Part shown: piece after piece, positions 1 to 55,176 of the stretch | How positions within the stretch are numbered: the stretch's first letter is position 1 | How the letters are laid out: every line of letters begins with the position of its first letter | Translations under genes and position numbers: made by a program | The notes under the pieces: model-generated | The model's input: the letters and a program-made list of their open reading frames with translations, nothing else | Told to the model about the DNA's origin: nothing | Database searches by the model: none | Source: an uncultured Pseudomonadota bacterium | Lineage (GTDB): Bacteria; Pseudomonadota; Alphaproteobacteria; Rs-D84 | Reading direction: 5' to 3' | Length of the DNA: 64,000 nucleotides | Assembly: GCA_949298405.1 (NCBI GenBank) | Contig: CASFWA010000002.1 | Coordinates: forward strand, 10,048 to 74,047

Positions 1-180
1 TTCTTGTTCGCGAATTTTTTCTTGCTGAGTTTTGAAACGGTCACCGATAAACTTTAAGAACACCAATGTCAGTAACAAATCGCGCTTGTCCGTCATAGGC
101 GCGCGGCCACGCAAATGATTACGACAATTGAATAATATAGTTTCCAGTGTTTCTTCTTTTATTTTTGCTGCCTTTGCCAT
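1..180 (-). CDS. hsdM: type I restriction-modification DNA methyltransferase subunit HsdM, N-terminal ~60 codons; the gene runs off the window start
   Basis: Minus-strand ATG at 178-180. Translation MAKAAKIKEETLETILFNCRNHLRGRAPMTDKRDLLLTLVFLKFIGDRFKTQQEKIREQE matches the conserved HsdM N-terminal motif (..LRG.......lL.l.FLKfisD.F). Absent from the ORF track because it is truncated by the window edge. Confidence 0.5.
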   Translation of the reverse strand, partial: MAKAAKIKEETLETILFNCRNHLRGRAPMTDKRDLLLTLVFLKFIGDRFKTQQEKIREQE

Positions 181-313
181 ATCACATCCATTTTTGTTTA
201 TTGGTATTTGTTTCTATCAATCTGTATTTGATTATACTCATATTTGTGATTTTTGTAAGAAAAAAGGTAAAAATTCCAAAATTTTACACAATGCACTAGC
301 GTCGTGATATCTA

Positions 314-655
314 TTATTCCCCATCCGGGATTTCGGGGCTGGACACTTCGGTAATATCATCAAAGGGGATTTTGGTTTTGACTATGGTGATGTATCGATA
401 TTCGGGGTCTATGCGGGTGACCAGGCCCGTTATAGTGTCATAGGCATCGGTCCGGTAAAATCGCACCGTTATCATCATGCCTTTTTTAACCAACCCAAGT
501 TTCCGAGACAGTCGTTCGGCGGCATCACCAATCAATTCCCGTCGGGGTTCAACCACCCGATTTTTAGCCAACACCATCGCATAATACCCACGCAGGGCCG
601 CAAAAGGCATAAACTGTTTTGCACGTGCGGTATTATCAGCCATTGTGTCCCCCAA
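314..655 (-). CDS. YolD-like protein (UmuD-analogue partner of Y-family polymerase)
   Basis: 113 aa. The C-terminal pattern ITVRFYR.DAYDTITGLVTRIDPEYRYITIV...IPFDDITEV resembles the YolD family. It overlaps the stop of the upstream umuC-like gene by 20 nt, indicating an operon. Confidence 0.5.
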   Translation of the reverse strand: MGDTMADNTARAKQFMPFAALRGYYAMVLAKNRVVEPRRELIGDAAERLSRKLGLVKKGMMITVRFYRTDAYDTITGLVTRIDPEYRYITIVKTKIPFDDITEVSSPEIPDGE

Positions 656-1898
656 CCAAAGTATTACGTTTGCGACCGGTGGACTTCTCGTGATAATTTA
701 TGCCACGCAGGATGGCATTCTTGCCAAACTTGCCCTTGATATCCAGCAGTGCGTGTTGCAGTTTGCTTTCGCGTTCATCCGCCGTTGTGTCCACAAATAA
801 ATCCAGTTGCAGATGCACCGTATCTGCATCGACCAGGTTCCCCAACCCAACCGTCAATTTATGTATCGGTGTGCGTTTGTCGGTTGTTTCACGATACAAT
901 CGCACAAAGTCCGCCACCAATGTCTTGTAAGACGATGTGTGCGCTGGCAATTTACGACTGCCCCCGGTTGGGCGTCGCACATCCCGTGAATACCCCACAG
1001 ACAGAGATATTTCATCAGCCACCAGGTTCTTTTCCACCAATTCCAAGACCAGGTTATCCACCATTTCCTGCATCACAATCTGTGCATCGTCAAAGTTATA
1101 ATCTTCGAACAGAATCTGGCCGTTGGACAGTGAATGGGATTTCGCCTGATAGTTATGAATGTCGGCAATTGTGCATGGCTCTATGCCGTTCGCATGGTCA
1201 ATCAGGTATTCTGCATTTGTGCCGAACTCACGATACAGGGTTTCAGCCGGCAACTGCGTCACCCCATACAGGTCATAAACACCATATTTTTCCAGTCGCC
1301 GTGCAATGCCCGCCCCAATGTTCCAAATGTCCGTTATTGGCCGATGATGCCACAGGTGTTCCCGGAACGATTCCGCATCCAAGTATCCGATATGATCGGG
1401 GACTTTCTTGGCCGTGATGTCCAGCGCAACCTTGGCCAAGAACAAGTTTGTGCCGATGCCGGCGGTGGCGCATATGCCCGTCTCGGACCGCACCGCATCC
1501 ATCAGCATTATCGCCATTTCTTTGGGCGACCGTTTATACATTTTCAAGTAAGGCGTGATATCGATAAAGCATTCGTCAATGGAATAGACATGGATGTCTT
1601 CGGGCGAGATATAGCGCAGATAAATCCCGTAAATCTGGGCGGATACCTCCATATACTTTTTCATGCGGGGCATGGCGGTGATGTATTCAACGTTTTTGGG
1701 GATTTCAAAGACCCGGCAACGATTACGAATCCCCAGCGCCTTCATCGCCGGCGTTATCGCCAGACAGACCGCCCCCTGCCCCCGTGACGGGTCCGCCACC
1801 ACCAGGTTTACCGCAAACGGGTCCAGCCCACGGTCAACCGCTTCGACCGAGGCAAAGAAACTCTTTAAATCAATGCAAAGATAAAACCTTTCCGCCAT
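636..1898 (-). CDS. umuC: Y-family (error-prone) DNA polymerase, UmuC/DinB-like
   Basis: 420 aa. N-terminus FYLCIDLKSFFASVE with IDECFIDIT (catalytic DE) and a little-finger region are typical of UmuC/PolIV. GC content is clearly higher than the backbone. Confidence 0.85.
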   Translation of the reverse strand: MAERFYLCIDLKSFFASVEAVDRGLDPFAVNLVVADPSRGQGAVCLAITPAMKALGIRNRCRVFEIPKNVEYITAMPRMKKYMEVSAQIYGIYLRYISPEDIHVYSIDECFIDITPYLKMYKRSPKEMAIMLMDAVRSETGICATAGIGTNLFLAKVALDITAKKVPDHIGYLDAESFREHLWHHRPITDIWNIGAGIARRLEKYGVYDLYGVTQLPAETLYREFGTNAEYLIDHANGIEPCTIADIHNYQAKSHSLSNGQILFEDYNFDDAQIVMQEMVDNLVLELVEKNLVADEISLSVGYSRDVRRPTGGSRKLPAHTSSYKTLVADFVRLYRETTDKRTPIHKLTVGLGNLVDADTVHLQLDLFVDTTADERESKLQHALLDIKGKFGKNAILRGINYHEKSTGRKRNTLVGGHNG

Positions 1899-1949
1899 TC
1901 CGGGAATCAGTATAAACTGAATTCACAGGATGTCAAAAAGGATTGCATG

Positions 1950-1980
1950 AATAAAGAAACCCGCCCATGTGGGGCGGGAA
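1950..1980 (-). terminator. rho-independent terminator downstream of the small secreted-protein gene
   Basis: Hairpin CCCGCCC-ATGT-GGGGCGGG; on the minus strand it is followed by TTTCTTTATT. Confidence 0.5.
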
Positions 1981-1986
1981 TTCTTA

Positions 1987-2184
1987 TTAAAAACGATAGC
2001 TCAAATTATTAGATTTGATACCATCTGGGCGTGTTCTGTAATGTGACTGCACATATGTGCCATTGCTTTTTGTATAACCGTTCACATACACATACCCTGA
2101 GCCACCATAATAACTGGCCTGAGCTGGTACATTAAACACACACAGCGACAACACCACAACCAAACAACTTATTACCTTCTTCAT
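1987..2184 (-). CDS. small secreted Gly/Tyr-rich protein, hypothetical
   Basis: 65 aa with a cleavable signal peptide (MKKVISCLVVVLSLCVFNVPAQA). An AAGGA Shine-Dalgarno lies 8 nt upstream of the ATG, and a terminator follows. Confidence 0.4.
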   Translation of the reverse strand: MKKVISCLVVVLSLCVFNVPAQASYYGGSGYVYVNGYTKSNGTYVQSHYRTRPDGIKSNNLSYRF

Positions 2185-2293
2185 TTCATATCCTTTTGGT
2201 TCCGCGCAAGCACCATGCTCACACTATATAGATAGTGCGAAAACATATAAAATCAATTCGTTTTTCAATATTCAACACACAAAGCTATTATAA

Positions 2294-3118
2294 TCAGCTC
2301 ACTTTGTCTCTGGCACATAATTTTAATTTTGTTACCTTGCAACCATATGATAGGTCCAGCACATAAACATCCCTGAATACAGACTCAAATTTATGCTTTT
2401 GTAATTTATCGGATAAATGCACAAAACCGTTTTCGACAACGACCAACAAATCGCATTCATCGCAATTCTTTTTGTATTGTTCGAACTTCTTGTTCTTGCC
2501 GTCTATCGTCTTTTGCAGGTCTTCGAACGGGTTTTCAATACACATTCCCTGATTATTTACATGCACAGATGTATGCGGCGCATGCATTTTGCTAGCATTT
2601 ACAATAAACGTCTGCCCTTTTACATCAACCCACTTCTTTGTTATTCCCCATTTTGGAATGCCGGCTTCCTCCAGCGCAGATATCAATGCATCCTTAATTT
2701 CTTTGTCTGTGGCACTTAATTTATTAAATCCGGGGTTATAGCACCTGTCAAAAAAATCTTCCCTGGTCATACTGAATTTTCGCGGGTCTTGAATATCTAT
2801 TAGCAAGGTAAGCGCGATTCCCTGTTTCTTAAAGTGGCCGACTATCTTCTTGGCAATTTCTTCCAAACGCATCGTGGCTATGTTCTTGGCACTTTTATTT
2901 ACGAAATTAACAATCTCTAAACCTATTGTGGGCCTATTTGGAACCTTGAATATAAAATCCGGGCTTTCGCTGCTTATTTTTTTGGTTATACCGTTTTCCT
3001 GCATCCAGCGTTCACCAAGTTTATGGCGTGTAAATAACGCTAGATAAGTTGCCTCTGCGCCTTTTTGACCATCATCTTGAATTATAAATTGCCCGCCCTT
3101 GTGTACAACTTCTGTCAT
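2294..3118 (-). CDS. hypothetical protein (island cargo)
   Basis: 274-aa ORF that abuts the DUF4143 ATPase gene on the same strand. No recognisable motif. Confidence 0.45.
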   Translation of the reverse strand: MTEVVHKGGQFIIQDDGQKGAEATYLALFTRHKLGERWMQENGITKKISSESPDFIFKVPNRPTIGLEIVNFVNKSAKNIATMRLEEIAKKIVGHFKKQGIALTLLIDIQDPRKFSMTREDFFDRCYNPGFNKLSATDKEIKDALISALEEAGIPKWGITKKWVDVKGQTFIVNASKMHAPHTSVHVNNQGMCIENPFEDLQKTIDGKNKKFEQYKKNCDECDLLVVVENGFVHLSDKLQKHKFESVFRDVYVLDLSYGCKVTKLKLCARDKVS

Positions 3119-3129
3119 TGTGTATTGTT

Positions 3130-4356
3130 TTACAAATACGCCACGGGGATGACGTTTACATCGGCCGTTAATGGCAGGTGAGTTTGCGCATTACAAACAA
3201 CCGCACCTGGGCCACGTTGGGCATGCAAGACGTCTTCTATGACCCTAAAATTTTTTATGTCGCCAACATTCGGTGTCGTTGTTCGTTTGATTTCCACAGG
3301 ATACAATTTACCGTTTTCTTCAATCAAAACATCGATTTCCGCACCATGATTATCACGATAGTAATATATGTTCGGGTTGCGACCATTGTACCAATAGCTT
3401 TTAATTATTTCGGATACAACGTATGTTTCAAATATACTGCCCGCCATAGCCCCATTTGCAAGTGTTTCCGGTGTGTTCCACCCAGTCAAGAATGCGGCCA
3501 GCCCTGTATCAACGAAATATACCTTTGGAGCTTTGATAATACGTTTGGTAACGTTGCTGTAATACGGACGCAACAAGAACACCAAGCCCGACGCTTCCAA
3601 TACAGACAGCCATGATTTAATCGTTGGTGCGGTTACACCAATGTCACGGGCAATGTCACTGTAATTCATTTCCTGGCCTGTTCTGGCCGCCAAGACACGC
3701 ATAAACGACACAAATGCCATAGTATCCCCAACCGCACCAAAACTTTTAACATCGCGTTCGATATAGGTCTGCAGATATGATTCATAAAACGTATTCCACA
3801 TGTCGTCTGGTGCACCGTGCATTTTCGGATACGAACCACGCCATATCACATCATACACACGATTGATGTCCATTGGCTTGGATATTTTTGCCTTGGCATC
3901 AATATATTCCATTGTTGGCAAGAACGGTTGTGCCATTGGATTATTATTCTTTTCATCTTGGGAAAATCCGTCCAGATGCAGTATGCCGACACGTCCCGCC
4001 AAACTTTCTGATACATTTTTCATCAAATGAAACTGTTGCGAACCGGTCAGCCAGTACATACCAGGCTTGTTTTCTTGGTCTACAATCGCCTTGATATATG
4101 GAAACAGTTGCGGTGCATATTGAACTTCATCAATCAAAACAGGGGCCGGGAAACGTTGCAAAAACAGTTCTGGTTCCGTCTGGGCCAGACTTCTGTTCGC
4201 CAACGTATCCAACGAAACATAGGTTGCAGGCGTATTTGCAACATTTTGCAAAACCGTTGTCTTACCAACTTGACGCGGTCCCGTGACCATAATCACAGGG
4301 AAAAAGTTGCTGATTTTTTCTATACTCTGTTCCAAAGTTCTGTTTATGTATGCCAT
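3130..4356 (-). CDS. AAA+ ATPase of the DUF4143/COG1373 family
   Basis: 408 aa. Walker A VIMVTGPRQVGKTT and Walker B-like VLIDEVQ. Overall architecture matches the widespread ATPase-plus-DUF4143 family. A GGAGG RBS sits 5 nt upstream. Confidence 0.7.
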   Translation of the reverse strand: MAYINRTLEQSIEKISNFFPVIMVTGPRQVGKTTVLQNVANTPATYVSLDTLANRSLAQTEPELFLQRFPAPVLIDEVQYAPQLFPYIKAIVDQENKPGMYWLTGSQQFHLMKNVSESLAGRVGILHLDGFSQDEKNNNPMAQPFLPTMEYIDAKAKISKPMDINRVYDVIWRGSYPKMHGAPDDMWNTFYESYLQTYIERDVKSFGAVGDTMAFVSFMRVLAARTGQEMNYSDIARDIGVTAPTIKSWLSVLEASGLVFLLRPYYSNVTKRIIKAPKVYFVDTGLAAFLTGWNTPETLANGAMAGSIFETYVVSEIIKSYWYNGRNPNIYYYRDNHGAEIDVLIEENGKLYPVEIKRTTTPNVGDIKNFRVIEDVLHAQRGPGAVVCNAQTHLPLTADVNVIPVAYL

Positions 4357-4364
4357 AGCATCCT

Positions 4365-4401
4365 CCGGCGGATTTAAAGTTATACTTTAGAATATCAAAA
4401 G
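4365..4401. repeat. direct repeat copy 1 (about 36 bp) in the ATPase 5' leader
   Basis: CGGCGGATTTAAAGTTATACTTTAGAATATCAAAAG; repeated 60 bp downstream with about 28/36 identity. Confidence 0.6.
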
Positions 4402-4424
4402 TCAGACCCAATGTCAAATATTTT

Positions 4425-4461
4425 CGGCGGATTTAAAGTGACGCTTTAGATTATCGAAAAT
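4425..4461. repeat. direct repeat copy 2
   Basis: CGGCGGATTTAAAGTGACGCTTTAGATTATCGAAAA. The first 15 nt are identical to copy 1. Confidence 0.6.
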
Positions 4462-4471
4462 GCAGCCATAT

Positions 4472-5449
4472 TTAGCAAAAATCATCGAACACATCACCAC
4501 CTGTCCATTCATAACCGCGTTCTATGGTATAATATTTTTCTGCGCCTTCGTCTGTAATAAACGTTCTTATAGAGGTATGATAGAACATGTTAGATTTATA
4601 CTCTATTTTTGCTAACGCATAGCCCATACCACCACTGGCCATAACCACAATGGCTTTTCTATCCTTATCGAAATCTGCTTTTATAACTTCAGATTGATAA
4701 ACAGCATTTTTAGCAAACAGTTTGCCCTCGCTTATATTGTTCAAGTAATCTTGCAATGGTTCATCTGATACCACGGATGGACATAATGGAAATTCTGATG
4801 GAACTTTCCAGTTAACTTGCATTGCATTAGGTGTAAGCGATTGTTTTTCTATCGGCATATCTTCTTCCACTGTATCTTCTGGGCCCCACTGTTTATCATG
4901 ATACACCCACTCACCCAATTTACCATTGCCTGTCGGCACAGAATCTTCTTTGGCCCAACGTTCTAATTTTTCTTTACTGATTTTTGCTTCATCTGGCGAA
5001 ACTGTGCGCATCCAGTCAAAATTCTGGTCCACACTACCAGCTCTTAAAAGTGCAGGATTTTCCAAGAAGTTTTCAATACTGCCACAACATAATATTATAC
5101 GCTTTCTGGTTATTGGATTGTTCAGTGCGTTTTCCAGTCTAGTTGCCCAACGCAAGTTGTCTGGCCGATTATTACACTTATTTGTGTCCTTGTGGTCTAT
5201 TACATGCGTGGACGATGGCTTTGGTTCAAGAAAGGCCTCTGCAACAATCTGATGAACACGCACAGAATTGATATACATATATCCATTCGTTTCGTTTTTG
5301 GTTCCAAAGGTCCAAACTTCATCTAGTTTGCGTTTTATCTTGTTGGGCCGAGCATGCCGCATTACCGCACCATTATTACGCACAGAGTACCTTTCGTCCT
5401 TGAACACACATTCCTTTTCTTGGTCAAAAAAAGAGTCAACACTTATCAT
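4472..5449 (-). CDS. HNH homing-type endonuclease with NUMOD4-like N-terminal region
   Basis: 325 aa. RYSVRNNGAV resembles NUMOD4. HVIDHKDTNKCNNRPDNLRWATRLEN is an HNH_3 nuclease motif. The gene starts 3 nt after the integrase stop, in an operon. Confidence 0.6.
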   Translation of the reverse strand: MISVDSFFDQEKECVFKDERYSVRNNGAVMRHARPNKIKRKLDEVWTFGTKNETNGYMYINSVRVHQIVAEAFLEPKPSSTHVIDHKDTNKCNNRPDNLRWATRLENALNNPITRKRIILCCGSIENFLENPALLRAGSVDQNFDWMRTVSPDEAKISKEKLERWAKEDSVPTGNGKLGEWVYHDKQWGPEDTVEEDMPIEKQSLTPNAMQVNWKVPSEFPLCPSVVSDEPLQDYLNNISEGKLFAKNAVYQSEVIKADFDKDRKAIVVMASGGMGYALAKIEYKSNMFYHTSIRTFITDEGAEKYYTIERGYEWTGGDVFDDFC

Positions 5450-5451
5450 TA

Positions 5452-6639
5452 TTATCCCCTTATATCCTCTGGCACAAATTCCAACATTTTATCGGCGGCA
5501 CGTTGGATAGAATCACGCACAGGGTCCATTGTTAAACGGGCATATACCTGGGTTGCTGCGCTGGTTTTATCGCCCAGGGCCTTGCCCACAATATGTAAAC
5601 TGGCACCGGTTATGGCCTGGTAACTGCCGAATGTACGACGCAGGTCATGGAACCGCAGGTCTTCGATATTCGCACGTTTTAACAATGCATACCAGGGACG
5701 GTGAAAGTCCTCGACATGACCGCTTTTGCTGCCGGCACGACTTGAAAACACCCAGTCATCAGTCGCATAAGTGCGCATATCTTGCAATATTTCAAGTGCC
5801 TGCGATATTAATGGGATGCGTTGCGGGTCACCATTTTTAGAATCCGGGAACAGCACAAACCCTAGATTCAAATCAACATTTGACCAGCGCATGGACAGCA
5901 TATTTTGCCGACGCTGACCAATAAACAGCGATAACAGCACATAGTTTTTAAACGCCTCGTTCGGCTCTTCGGCCAGTGCTGCAAAGAAACGTGTTATTTC
6001 ATCTGGCTGCAGGAAACGTTCACGGGACTTTTCACGAAACATTTTTATCCCGACCGCAGGATTACCATGATGTGCCGGATACCCCCATTCTATGGCCTTG
6101 TTATACATGTGTTTTATCAATCCAAGTGTCCGGTTGGCGGTGTATAAACTTATCTTGCTGCGCAACCCCGAATGTATCCGTTCCAGGTCAACACGCGTTA
6201 TGCTTATCATTTTACGGTTGTGCAATTCGGGCAGGTAATTGCGAAACATTGATTCAACCTTGGCCTGTGATTTTTGCTTTGTATACACCAAAACGTGCCG
6301 TGGGTAATACTGAGTATCAAAGAACTGTTTTAATGTCATATCACGCAGGGCTTCGTTGCGTTCTTGGCCGGGGTCTGTTCCGTGGTCGGCAACGGTCCGC
6401 AATTCACGTGCTTTCATCCGGGCTTCGACCAATTTTGTAACACCAACACGACCAATTTTTACACGCTTTGGCACCCCCAGGAACTTGGTATAGAAATAGT
6501 ACGTTTTTGTCCCGCCATAGGTCACAATGATGCACAAACCCGGTTGTCCATTGTCATAATAAGTCATTGGACGCTTGTCGGTCGGAATTGGCAATTCGGC
6601 CAACGTTTTTTCTGTAAAATTTATATGGTTATTGGTCAT
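5452..6639 (-). CDS. int: tyrosine site-specific integrase (phage/P4-type)
   Basis: 395 aa. N-terminal arm-binding-like region. C-terminal catalytic HDLRRTF and a Tyr in ATQVYARLT. Lies adjacent to the tRNA-Asn fragment. Confidence 0.85.
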   Translation of the reverse strand: MTNNHINFTEKTLAELPIPTDKRPMTYYDNGQPGLCIIVTYGGTKTYYFYTKFLGVPKRVKIGRVGVTKLVEARMKARELRTVADHGTDPGQERNEALRDMTLKQFFDTQYYPRHVLVYTKQKSQAKVESMFRNYLPELHNRKMISITRVDLERIHSGLRSKISLYTANRTLGLIKHMYNKAIEWGYPAHHGNPAVGIKMFREKSRERFLQPDEITRFFAALAEEPNEAFKNYVLLSLFIGQRRQNMLSMRWSNVDLNLGFVLFPDSKNGDPQRIPLISQALEILQDMRTYATDDWVFSSRAGSKSGHVEDFHRPWYALLKRANIEDLRFHDLRRTFGSYQAITGASLHIVGKALGDKTSAATQVYARLTMDPVRDSIQRAADKMLEFVPEDIRG

Positions 6640-7294
6640 CGTTTATATCCATTGTTGCTATTTTTTCCCAATCAACCCCGTATTTGTCGACAATATCTTG
6701 CATATCTGCAGAAAGATAAAAACTACGCTCGCTACGAATGTCGGTCGGAAATCGAGATGGATTTTTCCGATCATCATGTTCTTGTTGCCAAACTTCAAAA
6801 TCAGAAACAAAAATCCCCCTTTGAACAAAAGTGTCCGCAATCGGATTTTCTTGTAACTTATATCTATCTATGTTGAAAGAGTTCCTTTCCTTTTCCGGTG
6901 TCGAATAATAACAAATAAAACTTGCCAAGTATTTTAACTCGTCTACATTCAAATGCTCGAGCATGTTAGCATACCTGGCGAACAAATTTGATTTACGGTC
7001 GGGTTCTTCCACTTTTCCCATCCCTGAAATTAATCGAGCCAACAAAATCAAATTTCTTTTTGCAACCCCCTCTTGAACGGAACGAGAAAACCTTGCCAAC
7101 ATGCTAAAAAAATCATCCCGATGGATGGCAGTTAGGTCTCCACTGCGAATGTTTGTTAACAACACCTCCCTAGCCATGTTTATGTTTTTCTGACGCCATG
7201 CATCATATACGTGCTGCATTGCGCCACCAACCACCGGCACAGCACCCAAAACACTATCAACTATCTGCGGTAATACAGCATTTTCTTTTTCCAT
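6629..7294 (-). CDS. hypothetical protein, first gene of the hyp-int-HNH operon
   Basis: 221 aa. Overlaps the integrase start by 11 nt. Confidence 0.45.
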   Translation of the reverse strand: MEKENAVLPQIVDSVLGAVPVVGGAMQHVYDAWRQKNINMAREVLLTNIRSGDLTAIHRDDFFSMLARFSRSVQEGVAKRNLILLARLISGMGKVEEPDRKSNLFARYANMLEHLNVDELKYLASFICYYSTPEKERNSFNIDRYKLQENPIADTFVQRGIFVSDFEVWQQEHDDRKNPSRFPTDIRSERSFYLSADMQDIVDKYGVDWEKIATMDINDDQ

Positions 7295-7499
7295 TTCAAT
7301 CTCTTTTTGCTACCAAGGTCCGTGTTGCAAATGCCCCAGTCCGTGAGACGTCCGTTTGTCTTTATTTGTTACCTATTTGCTACCAACGGCGTTTTTTGCT
7401 ACCAATTTCCATTAATCTTCATCAAGTATAACATAGCCTATAACCCGCAGAAAATCAAGGAAAATTAAACTTTATCAATTTCTATCAATCTTAATAAAA

Positions 7500-7549
7500 A
7501 CGGACTGTTAATCCGTATGTCACTGGTTCGAGTCCAGTTGCCCGAGCCA
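7500..7549 (+). other. 3' 50-nt fragment of tRNA-Asn(GTT) (anticodon arm to CCA); integration-site (att) copy at the island boundary
   Basis: ACGGA-CTGTTAA-TCCGT (anticodon GTT), variable ATGTC, T-arm ACTGG-TTCGAGT-CCAGT, acceptor TGCCCGA-G-CCA. No matching 5' acceptor/D-arm lies upstream, so it is not a complete tRNA. Confidence 0.75.
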
Positions 7550-7556
7550 AGAATTT

Positions 7557-7580
7557 CCGCAGATTTCTGCGGATTTTTTA
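7557..7580 (+). terminator. rho-independent terminator (native tRNA-Asn terminator)
   Basis: CCGCAGA-TT-TCTGCGG followed by ATTTTTTA. Confidence 0.7.
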
Positions 7581-7791
7581 TTGTCTGTCTTCTACCCCGT
7601 TTTTATGCAAAATTGGATGAAAATGGCTCTAAATTGCCGGAGGAGTAAAACAAAAACACATATTTGACACACAGTAATATATACCATTACTGCTGAAATT
7701 TTATATATAAATAATATTTTTATAGAATTGCAATTTTTATTATTTTTATCTACAATTAAGACCGAAAAGAAACTATAAATAGGATATCAGG

Positions 7792-8613
7792 ATGGCAGGA
7801 AAAACAATCCAAATTTATTTACCAAGCGGAAAACTTAAAGGTATAAAAAAAGCTTCTATTACAACAGAAAAACCAATCGTTTTTCAAGTTCCTCTTACAG
7901 AAGTTAGTAATAATATTGATAAACTAGATTTTAATGGTATTTATATTTTAGTTGATAGTATAACAACTAACAAACCTCAACTTTATATTGGTAAAGGGAA
8001 AGTCAAACATAGAATACAACAACATATAAAAAAGAAAAGCTTTTGGAATACGGTTTTTGCAGTTAAACTTGATAGCATTAATGGTTTTAGTGATACAGAT
8101 ATTTCATATCTTGAGTATTATTTTATAAAAAAAGCTAAAGGCTTAACCAATATTATAACAGAAGAAAATAAACAAATCCCACAGATTCCAAAATTACAAG
8201 ATGAAAAATTGGACGAATTAACGTGTTATATTGAAACAATTGAGTTTATATTATCAACCCTGGGCTTAAAATGTTTTCAAAATGAAGACGAAAATAATAC
8301 TTTCACATGCCAAGATAAATACGGAAGTTTTGGCCAAGGAAAATATAATTCAGATTCAGGGCTTCTATTATTAAAGGGCTCTAAATGTAAAATGGCATTA
8401 CATAAAGGAACCAAAAATTTACCTAAAAGAACGGATTTAATTAAAAAAGGAATTTTAAAAGAAAAGGATGGATTCTATATCTTAACAGAAGATACAACTT
8501 TCTCTTCTGTTTCATCCGCAGCTCAAATCGTATTGGCAAGACGAGCTAATGGATGGACCGAGTGGAAAAATAAAGAAGGAAAAACATTGGATGAATTGTA
8601 TAGAATAAAATAA
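7792..8613 (+). CDS. GIY-YIG nuclease with C-terminal DUF4357-like domain
   Basis: 273 aa. GIYILVDS...LYIGKG is the GIY-YIG core. The C-terminal half resembles DUF4357. Local GC is extremely low. Confidence 0.65.
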   Translation: MAGKTIQIYLPSGKLKGIKKASITTEKPIVFQVPLTEVSNNIDKLDFNGIYILVDSITTNKPQLYIGKGKVKHRIQQHIKKKSFWNTVFAVKLDSINGFSDTDISYLEYYFIKKAKGLTNIITEENKQIPQIPKLQDEKLDELTCYIETIEFILSTLGLKCFQNEDENNTFTCQDKYGSFGQGKYNSDSGLLLLKGSKCKMALHKGTKNLPKRTDLIKKGILKEKDGFYILTEDTTFSSVSSAAQIVLARRANGWTEWKNKEGKTLDELYRIK

Positions 8614-8696
8614 AACAACTTAAATAAAAGTAATAAAATCTTATGATTTTTGTTTAAAAATCAAAAGATACTAATTAATAAAAAGGATTTTATAAA

Positions 8697-9530
8697 TTGT
8701 TAAAAAAATATATCAGTATTTATATGACCCAAGATGCATATCGCTCTTTTCGTGCCATATGCCCTAGGAAACTATTTTCTAAATTGATAATTTCTAACAT
8801 TCAATATAGTAATGAAACGTGTCATAAAAAATATCGCAGAAATTTTCAGTTTATACTTTCTGTTCCAAATACAAGTATTGATTCTATATGGAGAATAATA
8901 AATTCAAACATCAATATAAAACAAGAGATTCAATCTGATTGGGAACCTAAAACTACTACCGCACCACAAGTTACAGACAGTATAAAAAAAGACATCCTGC
9001 CTATAACCCAACATACACTACACAAACAATCAGCGACAAAATCTGAACAAGTTGCTGTTAACAAAAAAACTTTTAAAACATCTGAACTTACACCTAAAAT
9101 GGTGGAAGACATTCTTGGAATAGATTACAACCTTTTGCTGGACTCTTACTTTTATTACAATTCTAAATATAGCAACTACTTTGATAGTTATCTAGACGAA
9201 TTATACAATATTAAGGATATATTGGAAAACAATTCCATGTATAAAGAATACAAGCTAGCTTTCATTACATATGCCATAATTATAGAAGAAGAAGATTATA
9301 TAAAGTCTCCTACATTATACGACCCAAATAATTACGATGGAAGTATACCTTGGAATATCTACCCTAAGTACACAACTTTTATTTCATATAATTTAAAAAC
9401 AGAAACTTTTGAAAAATATCCACGAGGTTGGATAAAAATATACGGTTCGCATTTTGATGATATCAAGACTCTATTCAATAGTAAAAATGAAGAAATATTG
9501 TCGGCATTTAAAAATGAAAAAACACGATAA
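8697..9530 (+). CDS. hypothetical protein (AT-rich orphan)
   Basis: 277 aa. TTG start with AAGGA 10 nt upstream; an alternative ATG is at 8724. No motif recognised. Confidence 0.4.
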   Translation: MLKKYISIYMTQDAYRSFRAICPRKLFSKLIISNIQYSNETCHKKYRRNFQFILSVPNTSIDSIWRIINSNINIKQEIQSDWEPKTTTAPQVTDSIKKDILPITQHTLHKQSATKSEQVAVNKKTFKTSELTPKMVEDILGIDYNLLLDSYFYYNSKYSNYFDSYLDELYNIKDILENNSMYKEYKLAFITYAIIIEEEDYIKSPTLYDPNNYDGSIPWNIYPKYTTFISYNLKTETFEKYPRGWIKIYGSHFDDIKTLFNSKNEEILSAFKNEKTR

Positions 9531-9577
9531 AACTACCTTATTTATATGTTGTTTCTAAATTGCCAAAGATATTTTAT

Positions 9578-10162: not shown

Positions 10163-10197
10163 AAAAGAATCAGCGGTGAAATTCCGCTGATTCTTTT
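10163..10197 (-). terminator. rho-independent terminator after the 10204-11199 gene
   Basis: AAAAGAATCAGCGG-TGAAATT-CCGCTGATTCTTTT, a perfect 14-bp stem. Confidence 0.7.
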
Positions 10198-10203
10198 ATA
10201 TTA

Positions 10204-11199
10204 CTAATTTAACTCTATCAACTCATATTTTGTCGTGCCTAACCCTATTGATTCTGCATACGGTAAAATATGTCGCCCCATCTGTCTGTCAATTCGTTCT
10301 TGTAATTTCTTTGCACCTGTGTCTTTAGACGCATATATCATATCTACAAACGCTTGGTCATTAGCAACTGGATCCGTTGATGCAACAATCCCCAAGTCAG
10401 ACATAACTGGATCCGTTTGATGCGCATCGCAATCACAATCAACTGACAAAAAGTTCATAACTGTTATATATACAATCTGCTTGCCCTGCGAAGCAAAATA
10501 ATCACTAACAGATTTTGCCGCCTCTGCCATTGATTCTATAAATGCCTGTTGTTCTGGTAAATTAGACCACAATATTTCTGGGTCTTCTGTGAACCCTGCT
10601 GAATGAATATAAGCCTTGCCATTTCTTGACGCTATACCAATAGATTGATTCTTTAAACTCGCACCAAAGCCGCCCATTGCATGTCCCTTGCCATGTGCTA
10701 AATTTAATATTGAATCATAATTATCCAAATGTGTCCCAACAAGGTTATATTTTAAATGCTTGCCATTATTAACTGGTATTTTCTTTTCGCCTTCTGCATC
10801 CATAATATCAACGTCCGCAAATTTTGTAAAACCGTGTTCTTCTGCAACCTTTAAATGGTCTTCTACTGTATTGCGTTTTCCAGCATATGCCGTATTACAC
10901 TCAAGAATAGTACCCTTTAATTTCTGAACAAGCGGTCCTATTAATTCAGCCTTTAAATAACCGCGAGAACCAGCCTCGCCAGTTGAAACTTTTACCCCGA
11001 CCCTGCCCTTTAATTCTACGCCAAGTGCGTCATATATTTTTATCAAATTTTCTGGTGTTATATCTTTTACATAATATACTTTTGCTGGTTCGTTTTTCAT
11101 TTCTTTCTCCGCGTTACTAAAACTATTATATATAAACCATATTAATGTTATACCTATTAAAATACTTATAAAAAGTATAAACAATTTTTTATAATTCAT
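10204..11199 (-). CDS. membrane-anchored hypothetical protein, possibly DUF362 family
   Basis: 331 aa with an N-terminal TM helix. Contains a VDCDCDAHQ Cys cluster. The family assignment is a recollection, not verified. Confidence 0.35.
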   Translation of the reverse strand: MNYKKLFILFISILIGITLIWFIYNSFSNAEKEMKNEPAKVYYVKDITPENLIKIYDALGVELKGRVGVKVSTGEAGSRGYLKAELIGPLVQKLKGTILECNTAYAGKRNTVEDHLKVAEEHGFTKFADVDIMDAEGEKKIPVNNGKHLKYNLVGTHLDNYDSILNLAHGKGHAMGGFGASLKNQSIGIASRNGKAYIHSAGFTEDPEILWSNLPEQQAFIESMAEAAKSVSDYFASQGKQIVYITVMNFLSVDCDCDAHQTDPVMSDLGIVASTDPVANDQAFVDMIYASKDTGAKKLQERIDRQMGRHILPYAESIGLGTTKYELIELN

Positions 11200-12622: not shown

Positions 12623-13530
12623 TATTTCACACCAAAAGCAACATCCATTTTAATACCAGATGTATGCTCTTTAAAATTCACAGTTCCTACTGCTTCTGTC
12701 GGCACACCAATTTCTGTTTTAGGTCCATAATAATTAACTGACATATTTGCACCAGAAGTTATAAATTTATTACCCCCGACATCAAATTTCACTAAATCTT
12801 CTTTGTTCTTATAATTACTAAATTCTATTGTACCTGCGGTATCATCTTTTACTGTGACATCATACCAGTTATCAAATGTAGCGCCAAGTGTACTAACACC
12901 CGTTTCTTTATCAAAGTTTAATACAGCATCACCATCTAATTTTACAAATTCTGAATCTGCACTTGCACCACCAACCGCACGCCCAGAAAATTGCACGTCT
13001 TTTACAATATCCGCAACATCTATCCTTTGTGTTGCATTACCACTAACAAAAACTTTATCTTCTATACCAGCACGATTTGCCTCATTTTCATTTGTAATTT
13101 CATACGTACCAAAGTCCGAATAAGACAAACCTAATTCTTTTCCCAAAGAAGAATAATCCAAACTTTCATCCGCAAATTCTATACGCACGCTAGAAATTCT
13201 ATTTCCACGCGAAGGTCTGGTTCCCCTATCAGATTGCACAATATTTTCTGCATCATTTCCCCTGTCTGTACTCGGCACATAATTTACATCATCACCACGT
13301 TCATCAGTTGGGTCACGTTCAGATGTATCGCCCCTGTCTTCACTTGGTTCTGGATTTGTTTCACCCCGATTGTCACTTGGTAAATAATTTGAACTATTTC
13401 CACGACCTGATGTCGGTATATGCTTAGTACAACCTTCGGCAGAATCAAGGCATGCTGGGGAATATCCACCGCCACCACCACCACAAGCAGCCAAAATAAC
13501 AGTCAGCATTAAACAAGTTATTTTTTTCAT
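12622..13530 (-). CDS. surface lipoprotein (SLP) with TbpB/fHbp-like C-terminal handle-barrel domain
   Basis: 302 aa. Lipobox ILAAC followed by a Gly run. The C-terminal domain ends ...DVAFGVK (FGAK-type ending) and is paralogous to the 13688-14932 product. Confidence 0.65.
   Translation of the reverse strand: MKKITCLMLTVILAACGGGGGGYSPACLDSAEGCTKHIPTSGRGNSSNYLPSDNRGETNPEPSEDRGDTSERDPTDERGDDVNYVPSTDRGNDAENIVQSDRGTRPSRGNRISSVRIEFADESLDYSSLGKELGLSYSDFGTYEITNENEANRAGIEDKVFVSGNATQRIDVADIVKDVQFSGRAVGGASADSEFVKLDGDAVLNFDKETGVSTLGATFDNWYDVTVKDDTAGTIEFSNYKNKEDLVKFDVGGNKFITSGANMSVNYYGPKTEIGVPTEAVGTVNFKEHTSGIKMDVAFGVK
12863..12897. repeat. inverted repeat core A (35 bp identical, within ~90 bp of ~80% identity), inside SLP gene 1
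   Basis: TACCAGTTATCAAATGTAGCGCCAAGTGTACTAAC; its exact reverse complement is at 14648-14682. Confidence 0.85.
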
Positions 13531-13687: not shown

Positions 13688-14932
13688 ATGAAAAAATTTG
13701 CTTTCTTATTTATTGTGAATGCTTTGGCTGCTTGTAGTTTAAGTAATAGCAATGTTGACGGTTATTCTGCATACCCTGGCAACAGGAATCAATATAATCC
13801 TGGTTTAGACCTACCTTATAAAAATACTGCACAGAATAGCAATAAAGAAATTACAGGAATGGTCTCAAGTTCTTATGACCAGTTAAATAGATTTATAGCA
13901 TACAGGTTATCTGGTTATACCAACTACCCTATTAGCAATTATCAAGAAATTGCAAATTTAGCTGTATGGCTGACTTCCGATGATAGAACTGCATCAGATA
14001 TAAAAGATAAGTTTTATGAGAACTCTACCTTATTACACAATGCAATGTATGTAATTAACAAAAGTTTAGCAAGTTGCGTTAAATTTGTATCTTCTTATTC
14101 TGGCGAAGATGTGGGTAATTGTTTTGTAAAATGGCGCGCAGATAACGCGGTCACTTTTGATAAAGCAGCGCAATCTATTCGTGAAAATGCCGACTTTATA
14201 AATATACAGTCCGCGGAATTTTCTACAAACGATGATATAGTATTAAAGTTCGTTATTGATGACGGCGAAGAAAATAATGGCCCTGGTAAAATAACTGCTA
14301 TAAAAGTCGCAGACCAACAATATAACCGTATTGAAAATACTAATACATTTGAAAATGAAGAATCTATTTTAACTTATAATTCTCTTGGTAAAGAGTTGGG
14401 ACTTTCTTATTCTGATTTCGGAACCTACAAAGTAGTAAACAAAATCAATAACGAAATTTTAACTGATAATACGCCTTTTGCAGGTGGTTATTCCGCAAAA
14501 GAAATTACAGATATTGCACAAAATATCGAATTTACAGGCAAGGCCATCGGCACCGTTTCAAAAATGGCAGAAGATGGCGAGCAAAAGAAACTAGAAAAAA
14601 TTGATATTGCTGGAAATGCTGCGCTAAACTTTGACCCAGAGACGGGCGTTAGTACACTTGGCGCTACATTTGATAACTGGTACGATGTCATAGTAAAAAA
14701 TGATTCTGCGGGTACAATAGAATTTAGTAATTATAAGAACAATGCTAACGAATATGACATGCAGGTATCTGGTGATATGATAGAAGATAAAATAACTGCA
14801 AGCGGTGCAAATATGGATGTAAATTATTATGGTCAATTTCCAGAAAATAAAATACCAACCGAGGCATCTGGATTAGTTCAATACAAAGACGCAAATGGTA
14901 TAAAGTTAGACATGGCATTTGGCGCGAAGTAA
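13688..14932 (+). CDS. surface lipoprotein (SLP) paralog with TbpB/fHbp-like C-terminal domain
   Basis: 414 aa. Lipobox ALAAC. Shares LGKELGLSYSDFGTY, ETGVSTLGATFDNWYDV, AGTIEFSNYKN and C-terminal ...DMAFGAK with the divergent 12622-13530 gene. A strong AGGAGG RBS is present. Confidence 0.65.
   Translation: MKKFAFLFIVNALAACSLSNSNVDGYSAYPGNRNQYNPGLDLPYKNTAQNSNKEITGMVSSSYDQLNRFIAYRLSGYTNYPISNYQEIANLAVWLTSDDRTASDIKDKFYENSTLLHNAMYVINKSLASCVKFVSSYSGEDVGNCFVKWRADNAVTFDKAAQSIRENADFINIQSAEFSTNDDIVLKFVIDDGEENNGPGKITAIKVADQQYNRIENTNTFENEESILTYNSLGKELGLSYSDFGTYKVVNKINNEILTDNTPFAGGYSAKEITDIAQNIEFTGKAIGTVSKMAEDGEQKKLEKIDIAGNAALNFDPETGVSTLGATFDNWYDVIVKNDSAGTIEFSNYKNNANEYDMQVSGDMIEDKITASGANMDVNYYGQFPENKIPTEASGLVQYKDANGIKLDMAFGAK
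14648..14682. repeat. inverted repeat core B (reverse complement of 12863-12897), inside SLP gene 2
   Basis: GTTAGTACACTTGGCGCTACATTTGATAACTGGTA. Confidence 0.85.
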
Positions 14933-50250: not shown

Positions 50251-50546
50251 CCTTTACAATCATATATATTCTCTCTACAATTAGCGTGGATTTCAATAGG
50301 TATTGAAGTTCGGGGCTTAGAAATATAAACCAATTTACAATTTTACAAAAAATTGTGATATTAATTACAATGTTTCTAAAAAACCGACCGCTAATTTTAT
50401 AATTGGTGGTTATTCTTTACCTTATGATTCCGACTTTATTCCCAAATGGGTGGATGCGCATGGTTATATATTGAAAACCAGCGGAATTAGAAAAAAGTTT
50501 TCTGATTATTTGAACGTCCACCCCCAGAGTAAAAAGGTAAAAAACT

Positions 50547-51386: not shown

Positions 51387-51410
51387 ATTCTATATCAAAA
51401 TGAGTTTATC

Positions 51411-55137: not shown

Positions 55138-55176
55138 AAACCGAAGAGGGAAATAAGCCCTCTTCGGTTTTTTATT
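55137..55176. terminator. bidirectional rho-independent terminator
   Basis: AAAACCGAAGAGGG-AAATAAG-CCCTCTTCGGTTTTTTATT. Confidence 0.8.

What the first reader, a model, noticed from the sequence alone, without database searches (positions are those of the whole stretch)
1..7580. GC-richer integrative island bounded by a tRNA-Asn 3' fragment carries type I RM, YolD/UmuC, DUF4143 ATPase and HNH endonuclease cargo
Positions 7500-7549 are the 3' 50 nt of tRNA-Asn(GTT) with its native terminator, but no 5' half. Next to it is a P4-type tyrosine integrase in an operon with a 221-aa ORF and a NUMOD4-HNH endonuclease. The segment to the left is visibly more GC-rich than the AT-rich backbone. It carries a DUF4143 AAA ATPase, an unknown 274-aa protein, a YolD-like/UmuC mutagenesis pair and the start of an hsdM gene that runs off the window. 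This is the architecture of an integrative element or defence island. The intact tRNA-Asn (attL) should lie beyond the window start. The integrase sits next to the displaced 3' fragment rather than next to the intact tRNA, which is the less common arrangement.
Basis: partly seen in the sequence, partly recalled or inferred. Interest (0 to 1): 0.55.

Follow-up and report, generated by a model that had tools for sequence, protein, structure and literature searches.

The report
tRNA-Asn integrative defence island, 18.5 kb
The window's first 7.5 kb is the right-hand part of an ordinary but cleanly defined 18.5-kb mobile island that inserted into the tRNA-Asn gene of an uncultured gut alphaproteobacterium and carries mostly anti-phage genes.

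Summary
Window 7500-7549 is the 3' 50 nt of tRNA-Asn(GTT) with a terminator and no 5' half. To its left lies a tyrosine-integrase operon, then GC-richer cargo: HNH, DUF4143/PDC-S01, a 274-aa unknown, UmuC/YolD and the hsdM start. The predicted intact tRNA-Asn exists. A metagenome contig of 18,537 nt, 99.99% identical to window 1-7528, starts inside a tRNA-Asn and ends inside the window's fragment. That gives an 18.5-kb island whose left end lies about 11.0 kb before the window start. Beyond the window it carries hsdS, hsdR, DUF4268/PDC-S11, a small-terminase-like 108-aa protein and an excisionase-family HTH_17 gene beside attL. About 18 related integrases (58-98% identity) all sit next to a tRNA-Asn 3' fragment. 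Two related islands are seen complete, with an intact tRNA-Asn at the far end. A TTTGCTACC motif is conserved at fixed offsets on both sides of the core and probably marks arm-type integrase binding sites. The island is near-identical across diverged host backbones, and alternative islands occupy the same site, so it was recently mobile. Corrections: NUMOD4 was not detected, the repeat is 46/50 identical, only the right half is GC-rich, and the integrase is only distantly P4-like. This is a new member of a known kind.

The parts
1..180 (-). 5' end of hsdM (type I RM methylase). The gene continues beyond the window, followed by hsdS and hsdR.
   Evidence: Translation equals the N-terminus of the 526-aa HsdM_N+N6_Mtase protein of L001. 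hsdS and hsdR (1079 aa) follow.
314..655 (-). YolD-like protein (113 aa; called as 109 aa in public contigs), overlapping the end of the polymerase gene
   Evidence: Pfam YolD E 3.4e-5, 24.3 bits, below the 27.5 cut-off. GC3 0.52.
636..1898 (-). Y-family (UmuC/DinB-like) translesion DNA polymerase, 420 aa
   Evidence: Pfam IMS, IMS_C and IMS_HHH. NCBIfam best hit is the Pol IV subfamily PRK03103, 207 bits, below cut-off. GC3 0.60, the most atypical gene.
1953..2184 (-). 65-aa ORF (1987-2184) and a GC-rich hairpin plus T-run (about 1953-1985) that probably ends the integrase-side transcription unit
   Evidence: ORF. The hairpin CCCGCCC..GGGCGGG+TTTCTTT is visible in the spurious Leu_leader alignment. 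Its role as a terminator is inferred.
2294..3118 (-). 274-aa protein of unknown function (cargo)
   Evidence: No Pfam, PHROG, PADLOC or NCBIfam hit. A 67%-identical homologue occurs in related island L119.
3130..4356 (-). DUF4143/AAA_14 ATPase = PADLOC candidate defence gene PDC-S01
   Evidence: Pfam DUF4143 5e-49 and AAA_14 2.5e-27. PDC-S01 3.9e-114. The cassette 3126-4461 is 96% nt identical in L116 and L026, in other species.
4366..4459 (.). Two 35-nt direct repeats (4366-4400 and 4425-4459, 86% identical) upstream of the DUF4143 gene; possible operator or promoter elements
   Evidence: the repeat finder D1. They lie inside the 96%-conserved cassette. Function is inferred.
4472..5449 (-). 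HNH_3 endonuclease-domain protein, 325 aa, starting 2 nt after the integrase stop
   Evidence: Pfam HNH_3 2.2e-15; NUMOD4 not found. PHROG HNH endonucleases. Homologues follow the integrase in L026 (71%) and L126 (62%).
5452..6639 (-). Tyrosine integrase, 395 aa, with N-terminal arm-type DNA-binding domain
   Evidence: Pfam Arm-DNA-bind_3 1.8e-10 and Phage_integrase 4.4e-21. Box motifs GQRRQNML and HDLRRT...VYARL are read from the translation. The exact protein occurs on 9 contigs.
6629..7294 (-). 221-aa leader ORF overlapping the integrase start by 11 nt; function unknown
   Evidence: No family hit. Homologues at 43-59% sit in the same position in L131, L116 and L119. The AF2 model is too poor to use (pLDDT 47).
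7306..7403 (+). Candidate arm-type integrase binding sites: TTTGCTACC at 7306, 7376 and 7395, plus TTTGTTACC at 7365
   Evidence: TTTGCTACC occurs nowhere else in the 64-kb window. The 8-mer core TTGCTACC is conserved at -134/-123/-104 from the core in 11 related loci, and at +48/+59 after the attL tRNA in 4 loci. Background is 0.2 per 320 nt.
7500..7549 (+). attR core: displaced 3' 50 nt of tRNA-Asn(GTT)
7556..7583 (+). Native tRNA-Asn intrinsic terminator (host side of attR)
   Evidence: The same hairpin follows intact tRNA-Asn in L005 and L090.

Best explanation
Window 1-7549 is the right-hand 7.5 kb of an 18.5-kb integrative genetic element. It is inserted in the single-copy-looking tRNA-Asn(GTT) gene of an uncultured, probably reduced-genome, gut alphaproteobacterium related to Candidatus Enterousia.

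Mechanism, inferred from anatomy. The circular element carries an attP made of three parts. First come three or four TTTGCTACC arm sites. Then comes a copy of tRNA-Asn positions 27-76 with its own terminator. Then come two more arm sites. The heterobivalent tyrosine integrase binds the arm sites through its N-terminal Arm-DNA-bind_3 domain. It binds the core at the anticodon stem and exchanges strands in or near the anticodon loop. Integration leaves a chimeric but foldable tRNA-Asn at attL, about window -11026 to -10951. That gene has a host 5' part and an island 3' part with a compensated T-stem variant and an island terminator. Integration also displaces the native 3' 50 nt and native terminator to attR (7500-7583).

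The integrase operon (221-aa ORF, int, HNH) reads inward from attR. An excisionase-family HTH_17 gene reads inward from attL, so in the circle both diverge from attP. Between these end modules lies exchangeable cargo, mostly anti-phage: a complete type I RM system (hsdMSR), PDC-S01 (DUF4143), PDC-S11 (DUF4268) and an HNH nuclease. There is also a Firmicutes-like UmuC/YolD mutagenesis pair.

Shown: both att ends, the gene content, the conserved motifs, the family-wide geometry and the horizontal spread. Inferred: the crossover position, arm-site binding, the excisionase role and the defence activity.
For: attR and the genes. attL: contig L100+L108 reconstructed (18,537 nt; 99.987% identical to window 1-7528; 100% to L001; starts in tRNA-Asn; repeat spacing 18,500 nt). 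L091 shows fabI, a complete tRNA-Asn (8188-8263) and then the same left module at 99.3%.

The chimeric and native tRNAs fold to the same cloverleaf (-25.5 and -25.4 kcal/mol). The island-borne terminator folds at -13.2 kcal/mol. The T-stem is GTTGG/CCAAC at attL and ACTGG/CCAGT at attR, so perfect identity is limited to the 22 nt of the anticodon arm and variable loop.

Family geometry: about 18 metagenome loci have Int at 58-98% identity. In all but one of those holding upstream sequence, a tRNA-Asn 3' fragment lies 160-1600 nt upstream of int on the opposite strand. The fragment starts at tRNA position 27/28 or 32/33. L125 (12.5 kb) and L131 (9.2 kb) are complete, with an intact tRNA-Asn at the far end. 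Only Int and HTH_17 are universal. HTH_17 passes NCBIfam TIGR01764 'excisionase family' (34.7 bits, cut-off 28.8). Arm-site motif. P4's annotated attP has the same int, arm repeats, core, tandem arm repeats layout.

Cargo. Recent mobility: the island has 1 difference in 8 kb between two strains whose adjacent backbone has 133 differences in 8.7 kb. L093 has a 99.86%-identical backbone but a different island. L116 has Int and DUF4143 at about 96% nt in a backbone about 67% identical. L091 and L109 backbones are 70-75% identical but share a left module at 97%. Composition.
Against: The left junction was not read from the window's own assembly. It rests on a contig from another sample of the same study that differs by 1 nt in 7.5 kb, and on L091. 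That contig holds only 8 nt of the tRNA 5' of the repeat, so the intact tRNA at attL of this exact island is inferred from L091, L125 and L131.

No excised circle (attP) or truly empty attB was seen in the same species. Most contigs simply break at the site. No transfer genes (relaxase, T4SS, capsid) were found, so the route between cells is unknown. PDC-S01 and PDC-S11 are only candidate defence genes. Several genes (221, 242, 274, 289 and 206 aa) have no assignable function. Only the right half is compositionally atypical.
Confidence: 0.9

Rival explanations
1. The element is a phage satellite (PICI/SaPI-like). It would be an int+xis island that is induced and packaged by a helper phage and uses its own small-terminase-like protein (p108), perhaps with the HNH nuclease, to redirect packaging. 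The defence cargo would be its payload. This is a subtype of the best explanation rather than its opposite.
For: p108 lies in the left module, outside the window. It matches phrog_2412 (E 3.7e-16) and is 33-40% identical to proteins of 23 Streptococcus prophages and one annotated Streptococcus satellite phage. In three of those phages the homologue overlaps the start of the large terminase gene and is followed by the portal gene, which is the small-terminase position. The island has int, an excisionase-family gene and an HNH nuclease. It has no conjugation genes yet spreads between species.
Against: No replication module or capsid or morphogenesis gene was recognised. p108 covers only profile positions 7-98 of 150. 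It is absent from the complete relatives L125 and L131. The integrase has no relatives in IMG/VR. The p108 family has only one 27% hit there, so no helper candidate emerged. phrog_2412 itself is unannotated. The AF2 model (pLDDT 58) was too poor to test the fold.
Confidence: 0.2
2. The island is an immobilised remnant. On this view it arose from an ancient insertion and is now just a variable chromosomal region, and its diversity comes from homologous recombination between strains rather than integrase activity.
For: No attP circle or empty attB was observed in the same species. The att repeat is imperfect at 46/50. Cargo cassettes such as DUF4143 move between islands independently of the integrase. 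Small integrase-less inserts flanked by tRNA-Asn fragments exist in L005 and L085.
Against: The integrase, excisionase and all arm-site motifs are intact, and they are conserved at fixed offsets across integrases only 69-85% identical. The identical integrase is seen on 9 contigs from several samples. The island is nearly identical between strains whose flanks have diverged 1.5%. It occurs in backbones only 67-75% identical. The 22-nt perfect block covers the presumed crossover region.
Confidence: 0.08
3. The 50-nt tRNA-like segment is a chance match, or a relic of tRNA gene duplication or decay unrelated to integration.
For: ARAGORN calls nothing there and the Rfam score is below gathering.
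Against: All 50 of 50 nt are identical to the 3' part of intact tRNA-Asn genes of relatives, and the same terminator follows. The same fragment sits next to related integrases in about 18 independent loci. The matching intact end has been found.
Confidence: 0.01

Closest known systems
tRNA-gene integrative genetic elements / genomic islands as defined by Islander and TIGER (PMC4383910, PMC7192596)
   Same: A tyrosine integrase gene lies near one end. The target tRNA gene is regenerated at one end and its displaced 3' fragment sits in the same orientation at the other. Occurrence among relatives is sporadic and composition is atypical.
   Different: Nothing fundamental. The host clade (uncultured gut Alphaproteobacteria related to Ca. 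Enterousia, order Rs-D84) and this integrase lineage are not, as far as I could find, described.
P4-family integrase elements: phage P4 (NC_001609) and, from my own knowledge, asn-tRNA islands of Enterobacteria such as the Yersinia high-pathogenicity island
   Same: Arm-DNA-bind_3 + Phage_integrase domain architecture. attP is built as int, arm repeats, core, tandem arm repeats. The target is the 3' part of a tRNA gene, and for HPI-type islands also tRNA-Asn (my knowledge, not tested).
   Different: Pairwise similarity to P4 Int is marginal (28% over 85 aa, E 0.01), and the best phage integrase hit is 30%. The HTH_17 protein shows no similarity to the P4 excisionase. Here int lies at the fragment (attR) end. 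In P4-like prophages of E. coli it lies directly after the intact tRNA (my knowledge). There is no P4 primase, sid, psu or delta.
Phage-inducible chromosomal islands (SaPI/PICI) and other satellites carrying defence cargo
   Same: A small int+xis island with a small-terminase-like gene and anti-phage cargo. A p108 homologue is present in an annotated Streptococcus satellite.
   Different: No recognisable replication, repressor or capsid-remodelling genes. The TerS-like gene is truncated and not universal in the family. There is no viral-database relative.
Defence islands and defence hotspots in mobile elements (general concept; PADLOC candidate systems PDC-S01, S11 and S14)
   Same: Type I RM, PDC-S01 and PDC-S11 cluster together, with PDC-S14 just outside. 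Sister islands carry CBASS-like SMODS/AGS_C, SNF2/PLD+Eco57I methylase, Fic, AbiU2 and KAP NTPase cargo between the same end modules.
   Different: Also carries a UmuC/YolD pair. Defence activity is untested for every gene.

Membership tests
tRNA-integrated integrative genetic element (Islander/TIGER definition) | Contains a tyrosine integrase gene | tested here: met
   Window 5452-6639: Phage_integrase 4.4e-21 and Arm-DNA-bind_3 1.8e-10.
tRNA-integrated integrative genetic element (Islander/TIGER definition) | Intact target tRNA gene at one end and a cognate fragment at the other, in the same orientation, with a 3' fragment downstream of the tRNA | tested here: met
   attR fragment at 7500-7549 (+). 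The attL tRNA end is at the start of contig L108, same strand, 18,500 nt upstream. A full tRNA-Asn is seen in L091 with the same left module and in complete relatives L125 and L131. It was not read on the window's own contig.
tRNA-integrated integrative genetic element (Islander/TIGER definition) | Integrase near an end of the element | tested here: met
   The int start lies 861 nt from the attR core. [quoted passage not shown]
tRNA-integrated integrative genetic element (Islander/TIGER definition) | Sporadic occurrence: uninterrupted attB in related genomes | tested here: inconclusive
   Intact tRNA-Asn joined to the same native terminator is seen in related species L005 and L090. Alternative islands occupy the same species and site (L093). 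No contig of the same species was found with a truly empty site.
P4-family (arm-type) tyrosine integrases | N-terminal Arm-DNA-bind_3/DUF4102 domain plus C-terminal catalytic domain | tested here: met
P4-family (arm-type) tyrosine integrases | Significant full-length sequence similarity to P4 Int | tested here: not met
   BLASTP finds 28% over 85 aa of the N-terminal domain only, E 0.01. The protein is therefore filed as 'P4-like architecture', not as a close P4 relative.
P4-family (arm-type) tyrosine integrases | attP with repeated arm sites on both sides of the core | tested here: met
   TTGCTACC sits at -134/-123/-104 and +48/+59, conserved across 11 and 4 loci respectively. Compare P4's annotated arm repeats. 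Binding itself was not tested.
Type I restriction-modification system | hsdM, hsdS and hsdR genes together | tested here: met
   HsdM_N+N6_Mtase (526 aa), an S subunit (372/383 aa; Methylase_S only as a faint hit) and HSDR_N+ResIII+T1RH-like_C (1079 aa) lie in one operon. Only the first 180 nt of hsdM lies in the window.
UmuDC-like / YolD-UvrX-like mutagenesis module | Y-family polymerase plus an adjacent UmuD or YolD accessory protein | tested here: inconclusive
   The polymerase domains are clear (IMS 3.7e-28, IMS_C 1.5e-12). The YolD hit scores 24.3 bits, below the 27.5 cut-off. NCBIfam places the polymerase nearest a Pol IV subfamily, below cut-off.
Phage satellite (PICI/SaPI-like) | Integrase, excision/regulation genes, a replication module and packaging-hijack genes; induced and packaged by a helper phage | tested here: inconclusive
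   Int, an excisionase-family gene and a TerS-like protein are present. No replication or morphogenesis genes were recognised, and no viral-database relatives were found. Induction and packaging cannot be tested with these tools.
NUMOD4-HNH homing endonuclease | NUMOD4 domain together with HNH_3 | tested here: not met
   Only HNH_3 is reported, even at E<=10.

The most novel reading that the evidence does not exclude
These int+xis-only islands would form an undescribed family of helper-dependent, satellite-like defence shuttles. On this reading the conserved attL-side module (242-aa protein, excisionase, truncated small-terminase homologue) hijacks a phage's packaging machinery. That would move interchangeable anti-phage cassettes between species of reduced-genome gut Alphaproteobacteria through their tRNA-Asn hotspot.
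Probability: 0.15. Interest if true: 0.5.

Novelty: new member of a known kind. Interest (0 to 1): 0.3.

Why it matters
As a genomic island this is textbook, and the value lies in the context. The host clade has genomes of roughly 0.75-1.0 Mb according to the literature on Ca. Enterousia (PMC12306168). An 18.5-kb island would therefore be about 2% of the genome, devoted largely to anti-phage functions. The single tRNA-Asn locus acts as a busy exchange point. Strains with near-identical backbones carry different islands, and different species carry near-identical modules. The work also gives a precisely mapped attL, attR and reconstructed attP, with candidate arm sites, for a tRNA-Asn-specific integrase lineage. 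That is a usable starting point for integrase bioprospecting or for genetic tools in an uncultured clade. It also flags several uncharacterised genes that are repeatedly associated with defence cargo.

Tried and rejected
1. I looked for the intact tRNA or any repeat of at least 14 nt of the fragment within 9.4 kb left of the window in L001 and L002. There was none, because the island is longer than that.

3. I used fabI of L005 to find the left junction. It led to a different species (about 71% nt identity), with an intact tRNA-Asn and a hypervariable downstream region. That was useful context but not the source genome. L091's fabI matched no retrievable protein exactly.

4. I looked for fabI, ligA and the other left-flank genes inside the window, to test for a rearrangement. 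They are absent.

5. Look-ups with the exact DUF362 and PDC-S14 proteins, made to find an empty site in the same species, returned only occupied sites or contigs broken at the site.

6. The integrase and the p108 family were searched in IMG/VR. The integrase gave no relatives, and p108 gave one 27% hit.

7. AF2 models of the p108 family (pLDDT 58) and of the 221-aa leader ORF (pLDDT 47) were too poor, so fold searches were not run.

8. A literature search for how often the integrase lies at the fragment end found only the statement that int lies near an end. Williams 2002 is not held in the library.

9. The Rfam hits OrzO-P (10163-10232) and Leu_leader (1953-2068) are sub-threshold terminator hairpins, not RNAs of those families.

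10. The 242-aa attL-proximal protein gave no hit in Pfam, PHROGs, NCBIfam or the phage collection.

Full report
OBSERVATION

Window 7500-7549 (+) reads ACGGACTGTTAATCCGTATGTCACTGGTTCGAGTCCAGTTGCCCGAGCCA. It comprises an anticodon arm with GTT, a variable loop, a T arm, an acceptor 3' strand, a discriminator and CCA. ARAGORN finds three tRNAs in the window but none here. Rfam gives a partial, sub-threshold tRNA match (26.6 bits against 29). So it is a fragment and not a gene.

It is identical to positions 27-76 of intact tRNA-Asn genes of related genomes. A hairpin plus T-run follows at 7556-7583 (-14 kcal/mol, z -4.6). The same terminator follows the intact tRNA-Asn in relatives L005 and L090, so 'native terminator' is justified.

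All genes to the left are on the minus strand:
- a 221-aa ORF (6629-7294) that overlaps the integrase by 11 nt
- the tyrosine integrase (5452-6639; Arm-DNA-bind_3 + Phage_integrase)
- an HNH_3 protein (4472-5449) that starts 2 nt after the integrase stop
- DUF4143/AAA_14 (3130-4356)
- a 274-aa unknown (2294-3118)
- a Y-family polymerase (636-1898)
- a YolD-like ORF (314-655, below Pfam's cut-off)
- hsdM, starting at 180 and running off the window

NUMOD4 was not detected.

GC is 43.5% for window 1-7549. Same-sized backbone windows give 36.4 +/- 2.9%. GC3 is 0.35-0.60, against 0.29 +/- 0.05 for the backbone.

FINDING THE OTHER END

A look-up of the exact UmuC protein returned L001 (ENA ERZ16268163 scaffold_31, 152.8 kb; 99.2% identical, reverse orientation) and L002 (100% identical, ending at window 7399). 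Beyond the window start come hsdM-hsdS-hsdR, a 206-aa ORF, a 289-aa ORF, DUF4268 (PADLOC PDC-S11) and a 108-aa phrog_2412 protein. There is no tRNA within 9.4 kb.

It identified the host as an uncultured gut alphaproteobacterium. In L005 it gave the reference layout: PBP, OMP, ligA, fabI, intact tRNA-Asn, a 2.6-kb insert, a tRNA fragment with terminator, a 179-aa gene, then DUF362. fabI and ligA are not in the window, L001 or L002.

A homologue of the 108-aa protein led to L091. There fabI is followed by a complete tRNA-Asn (8188-8263), a 265-aa gene, an HTH_17 gene, the 108-aa gene, DUF4268 and the 289-aa gene. That stretch is 99.3% identical to the far end of L001. Different cargo then follows.

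A look-up of the exact integrase revealed a Logan contig of 18,537 nt (L100). Its other half was obtained through the HTH_17 protein (L108). Reconstructed, this contig is 100% identical to L001 over 16.9 kb and 99.987% identical to window 1-7528. It begins GTAGAACA|ACGGACTGTTAATCCGTATGTC..., which is tRNA-Asn from the end of the D arm. It ends inside the window's fragment.

Repeat start to repeat start is 18,500 nt. The attL core therefore lies at about window coordinate -11000, and the tRNA-Asn gene starts at about -11026.

ATT SITES AND MECHANISM

The attL copy has T-stem GTTGG/CCAAC, whereas attR has the native ACTGG/CCAGT. These are two compensated pair changes. Both versions fold into the same cloverleaf with equal energy. 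The repeat is therefore 46/50 identical, and the perfect block is 22 nt covering the anticodon arm and variable loop. This places the crossover there, as does the fact that family fragments begin at tRNA position 27/28 or 32/33. The island supplies its own terminator after the attL tRNA.

TTTGCTACC occurs five times in the island, always on the same strand. Three copies lie between the integrase operon and the core (window 7306, 7376, 7395, plus a degenerate copy at 7365). Two lie just after the attL terminator. It occurs nowhere else in the 64-kb window.

The 8-mer is conserved at -134/-123/-104 and at +48/+59 in islands whose integrases are only 69-85% identical. Background is 0.2 per 320 nt. 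This is the layout of an arm-type attP, and phage P4's annotated attP is organised in the same way. The 70-aa HTH_17 protein next to attL passes NCBIfam's excisionase-family cut-off.

I therefore infer a lambda/P4-style heterobivalent integrase reaction. Int reads inward from attR and Xis reads inward from attL, so both diverge from attP in the circular form.

FAMILY

A metagenome scan found about 18 loci with integrases 58-98% identical. In every one that held upstream sequence, except one, a tRNA-Asn 3' fragment lies 160-1600 nt upstream of int on the opposite strand. L125 (12.5 kb) and L131 (9.2 kb) are complete, with an intact tRNA-Asn at the far end. Integrase-next-to-fragment is therefore a lineage property.

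Only Int and HTH_17 are universal. Cargo seen between the same end modules includes:
- other type I RM systems
- CBASS-like SMODS/AGS_C
- SNF2/PLD with an Eco57I-type methylase
- Fic
- HEPN AbiU2
- KAP NTPase
- SocA

The integrase is at most 30% identical to any phage integrase in the collection. It aligns only marginally with P4 Int. It has no relative in IMG/VR.

MOBILITY

Between the window's strain and the L001 strain the island has 1 difference in 8 kb, while the adjacent backbone has 133 differences in 8.7 kb. L093 has a backbone 99.86% identical to the window's. It shares the fragment and about 50 nt of island-side sequence, but then carries a different integrase (55% identical), DUF4238 and another type I RM system.

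L116 carries Int and DUF4143 at about 96% nt identity in a backbone about 67% identical. L091 and L109 backbones are 70-75% identical but share a left module at 97%. Most assemblies break at the site.

Together this indicates recent horizontal movement and replacement at a hotspot. No attP circle or empty attB in the same species was seen.

SATELLITE QUESTION

The 108-aa protein belongs to phrog_2412. Its homologues in three Streptococcus prophages overlap the start of the large terminase gene, and one lies in an annotated satellite phage. It is therefore probably a small-terminase homologue, truncated here to two-thirds of the profile.

With int, xis and an HNH nuclease, this hints at a PICI-like lifestyle. 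Against that, no replication or morphogenesis genes were recognised. p108 is absent from L125 and L131. No viral relatives or helper candidates were found. The structure models were unusable. I give this reading about 0.15-0.2.

HOST

The closest named relative is Candidatus Enterousia intestinigallinarum. This rests on the fabI cluster P0005, which is identical over 271 aa to L091's fabI. Enterousia (order Rs-D84) genomes are about 0.75-1.0 Mb (PMC12306168). The genus assignment for the window itself is tentative. Its backbone is 81-86% nt identical to unnamed alphaproteobacterial MAGs.

VERDICT

It is a new member of a well-known kind, a tRNA-integrated integrative defence island. The host and hotspot context is modestly interesting, and the satellite-like possibility is unproven.

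Noticed in passing
window 7600-9560: Immediately right of attR, outside the island, lies a very low-GC (28.5%) block with a DUF4357 protein (PADLOC PDC-S14, 7792-8613) and a 277-aa unknown. The block is absent from relative L005, where the terminator flank abuts the 179-aa gene. In L093 a 69-nt deletion breaks the gene into fragments. The identical PDC-S14 protein also occurs in a quite different context (L204-L206, next to PLD, DNA methylase and Mtd_N genes). It looks like a second, integrase-less defence insertion.
   Followed up: partly
window 4366-4400 and 4425-4459: Two 35-nt direct repeats (86% identical, each with an internal TAAAGT..ACTTTA palindrome) sit upstream of the DUF4143/PDC-S01 gene. 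They lie inside a 1.34-kb cassette (about 3126-4461) that is 96% nt identical in islands of two other species (L116, L026), although the neighbouring genes differ. They may be an operator for a self-contained mobile cassette.
   Followed up: partly
L108 1-60 (attL; about window -11008 to -10950) versus window 7500-7549: The island-borne copy of the tRNA-Asn 3' half has T-stem GTTGG/CCAAC, whereas the host's is ACTGG/CCAGT (two compensated pairs). L131's host has GCTGG/CCAGC at both ends. The host therefore probably uses a chimeric tRNA-Asn whose T arm came from another lineage.
   Followed up: yes
L005 11660-14378; L085 6466-9864: Related species have small inserts (2.6 and 3.3 kb) between an intact tRNA-Asn and a second 44-47-nt 3' fragment. 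They carry no tyrosine integrase. L005 has a serine resolvase and a 362-aa protein, and L085 has an N6_N4 methylase and two unknowns. In L005 the repeat extends about 110 nt past the tRNA. These may be decayed islands or a different insertion mechanism.
   Followed up: no
window 10204-11199 (DUF362 gene): Outside the four alphaproteobacterial MAGs, the closest relatives of this backbone protein (66-82% aa identity) lie in MAGs labelled Clostridia, Bacilli, Erysipelotrichaceae, Tenericutes and Candidatus Saccharibacteria from animal guts. This suggests cross-phylum transfer among small-genome gut bacteria, or mis-binning.
   Followed up: no
window 12803-12934 and 14611-14742: A 132-nt inverted repeat, 88% complementary, lies near the 3' ends of two divergently transcribed ORFs with no Pfam hit (302 aa on the minus strand, 414 aa on the plus strand). 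The two proteins therefore share a C-terminal segment of about 44 aa. The repeat is conserved in other strains.
   Followed up: no
window 50500-55200: A block of 25-28% GC encodes glycosyltransferases (GT2, GT2+GT1 fusion, TOD1/MUCI70-like). It is probably a variable surface-polysaccharide locus. Similar glycosyltransferase clusters sit directly downstream of tRNA-Asn in some relatives (L086-L088).
   Followed up: partly
L108 1749-2075 (about window -9260 to -8934): The conserved 108-aa island protein is a truncated homologue of phrog_2412, a family unannotated in PHROGs. In three Streptococcus phages that family occupies the small-terminase position, overlapping the large terminase gene.
   Followed up: yes
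window 636-1898 and 314-655: The UmuC/YolD pair has by far the highest GC3 in the region (0.60 and 0.52, against 0.29 for the backbone). Its best curated match is a Pol IV subfamily. The YolD partner is a type best known from Bacillus and SP-beta (my knowledge). This suggests a different donor from the rest of the island.
   Followed up: no
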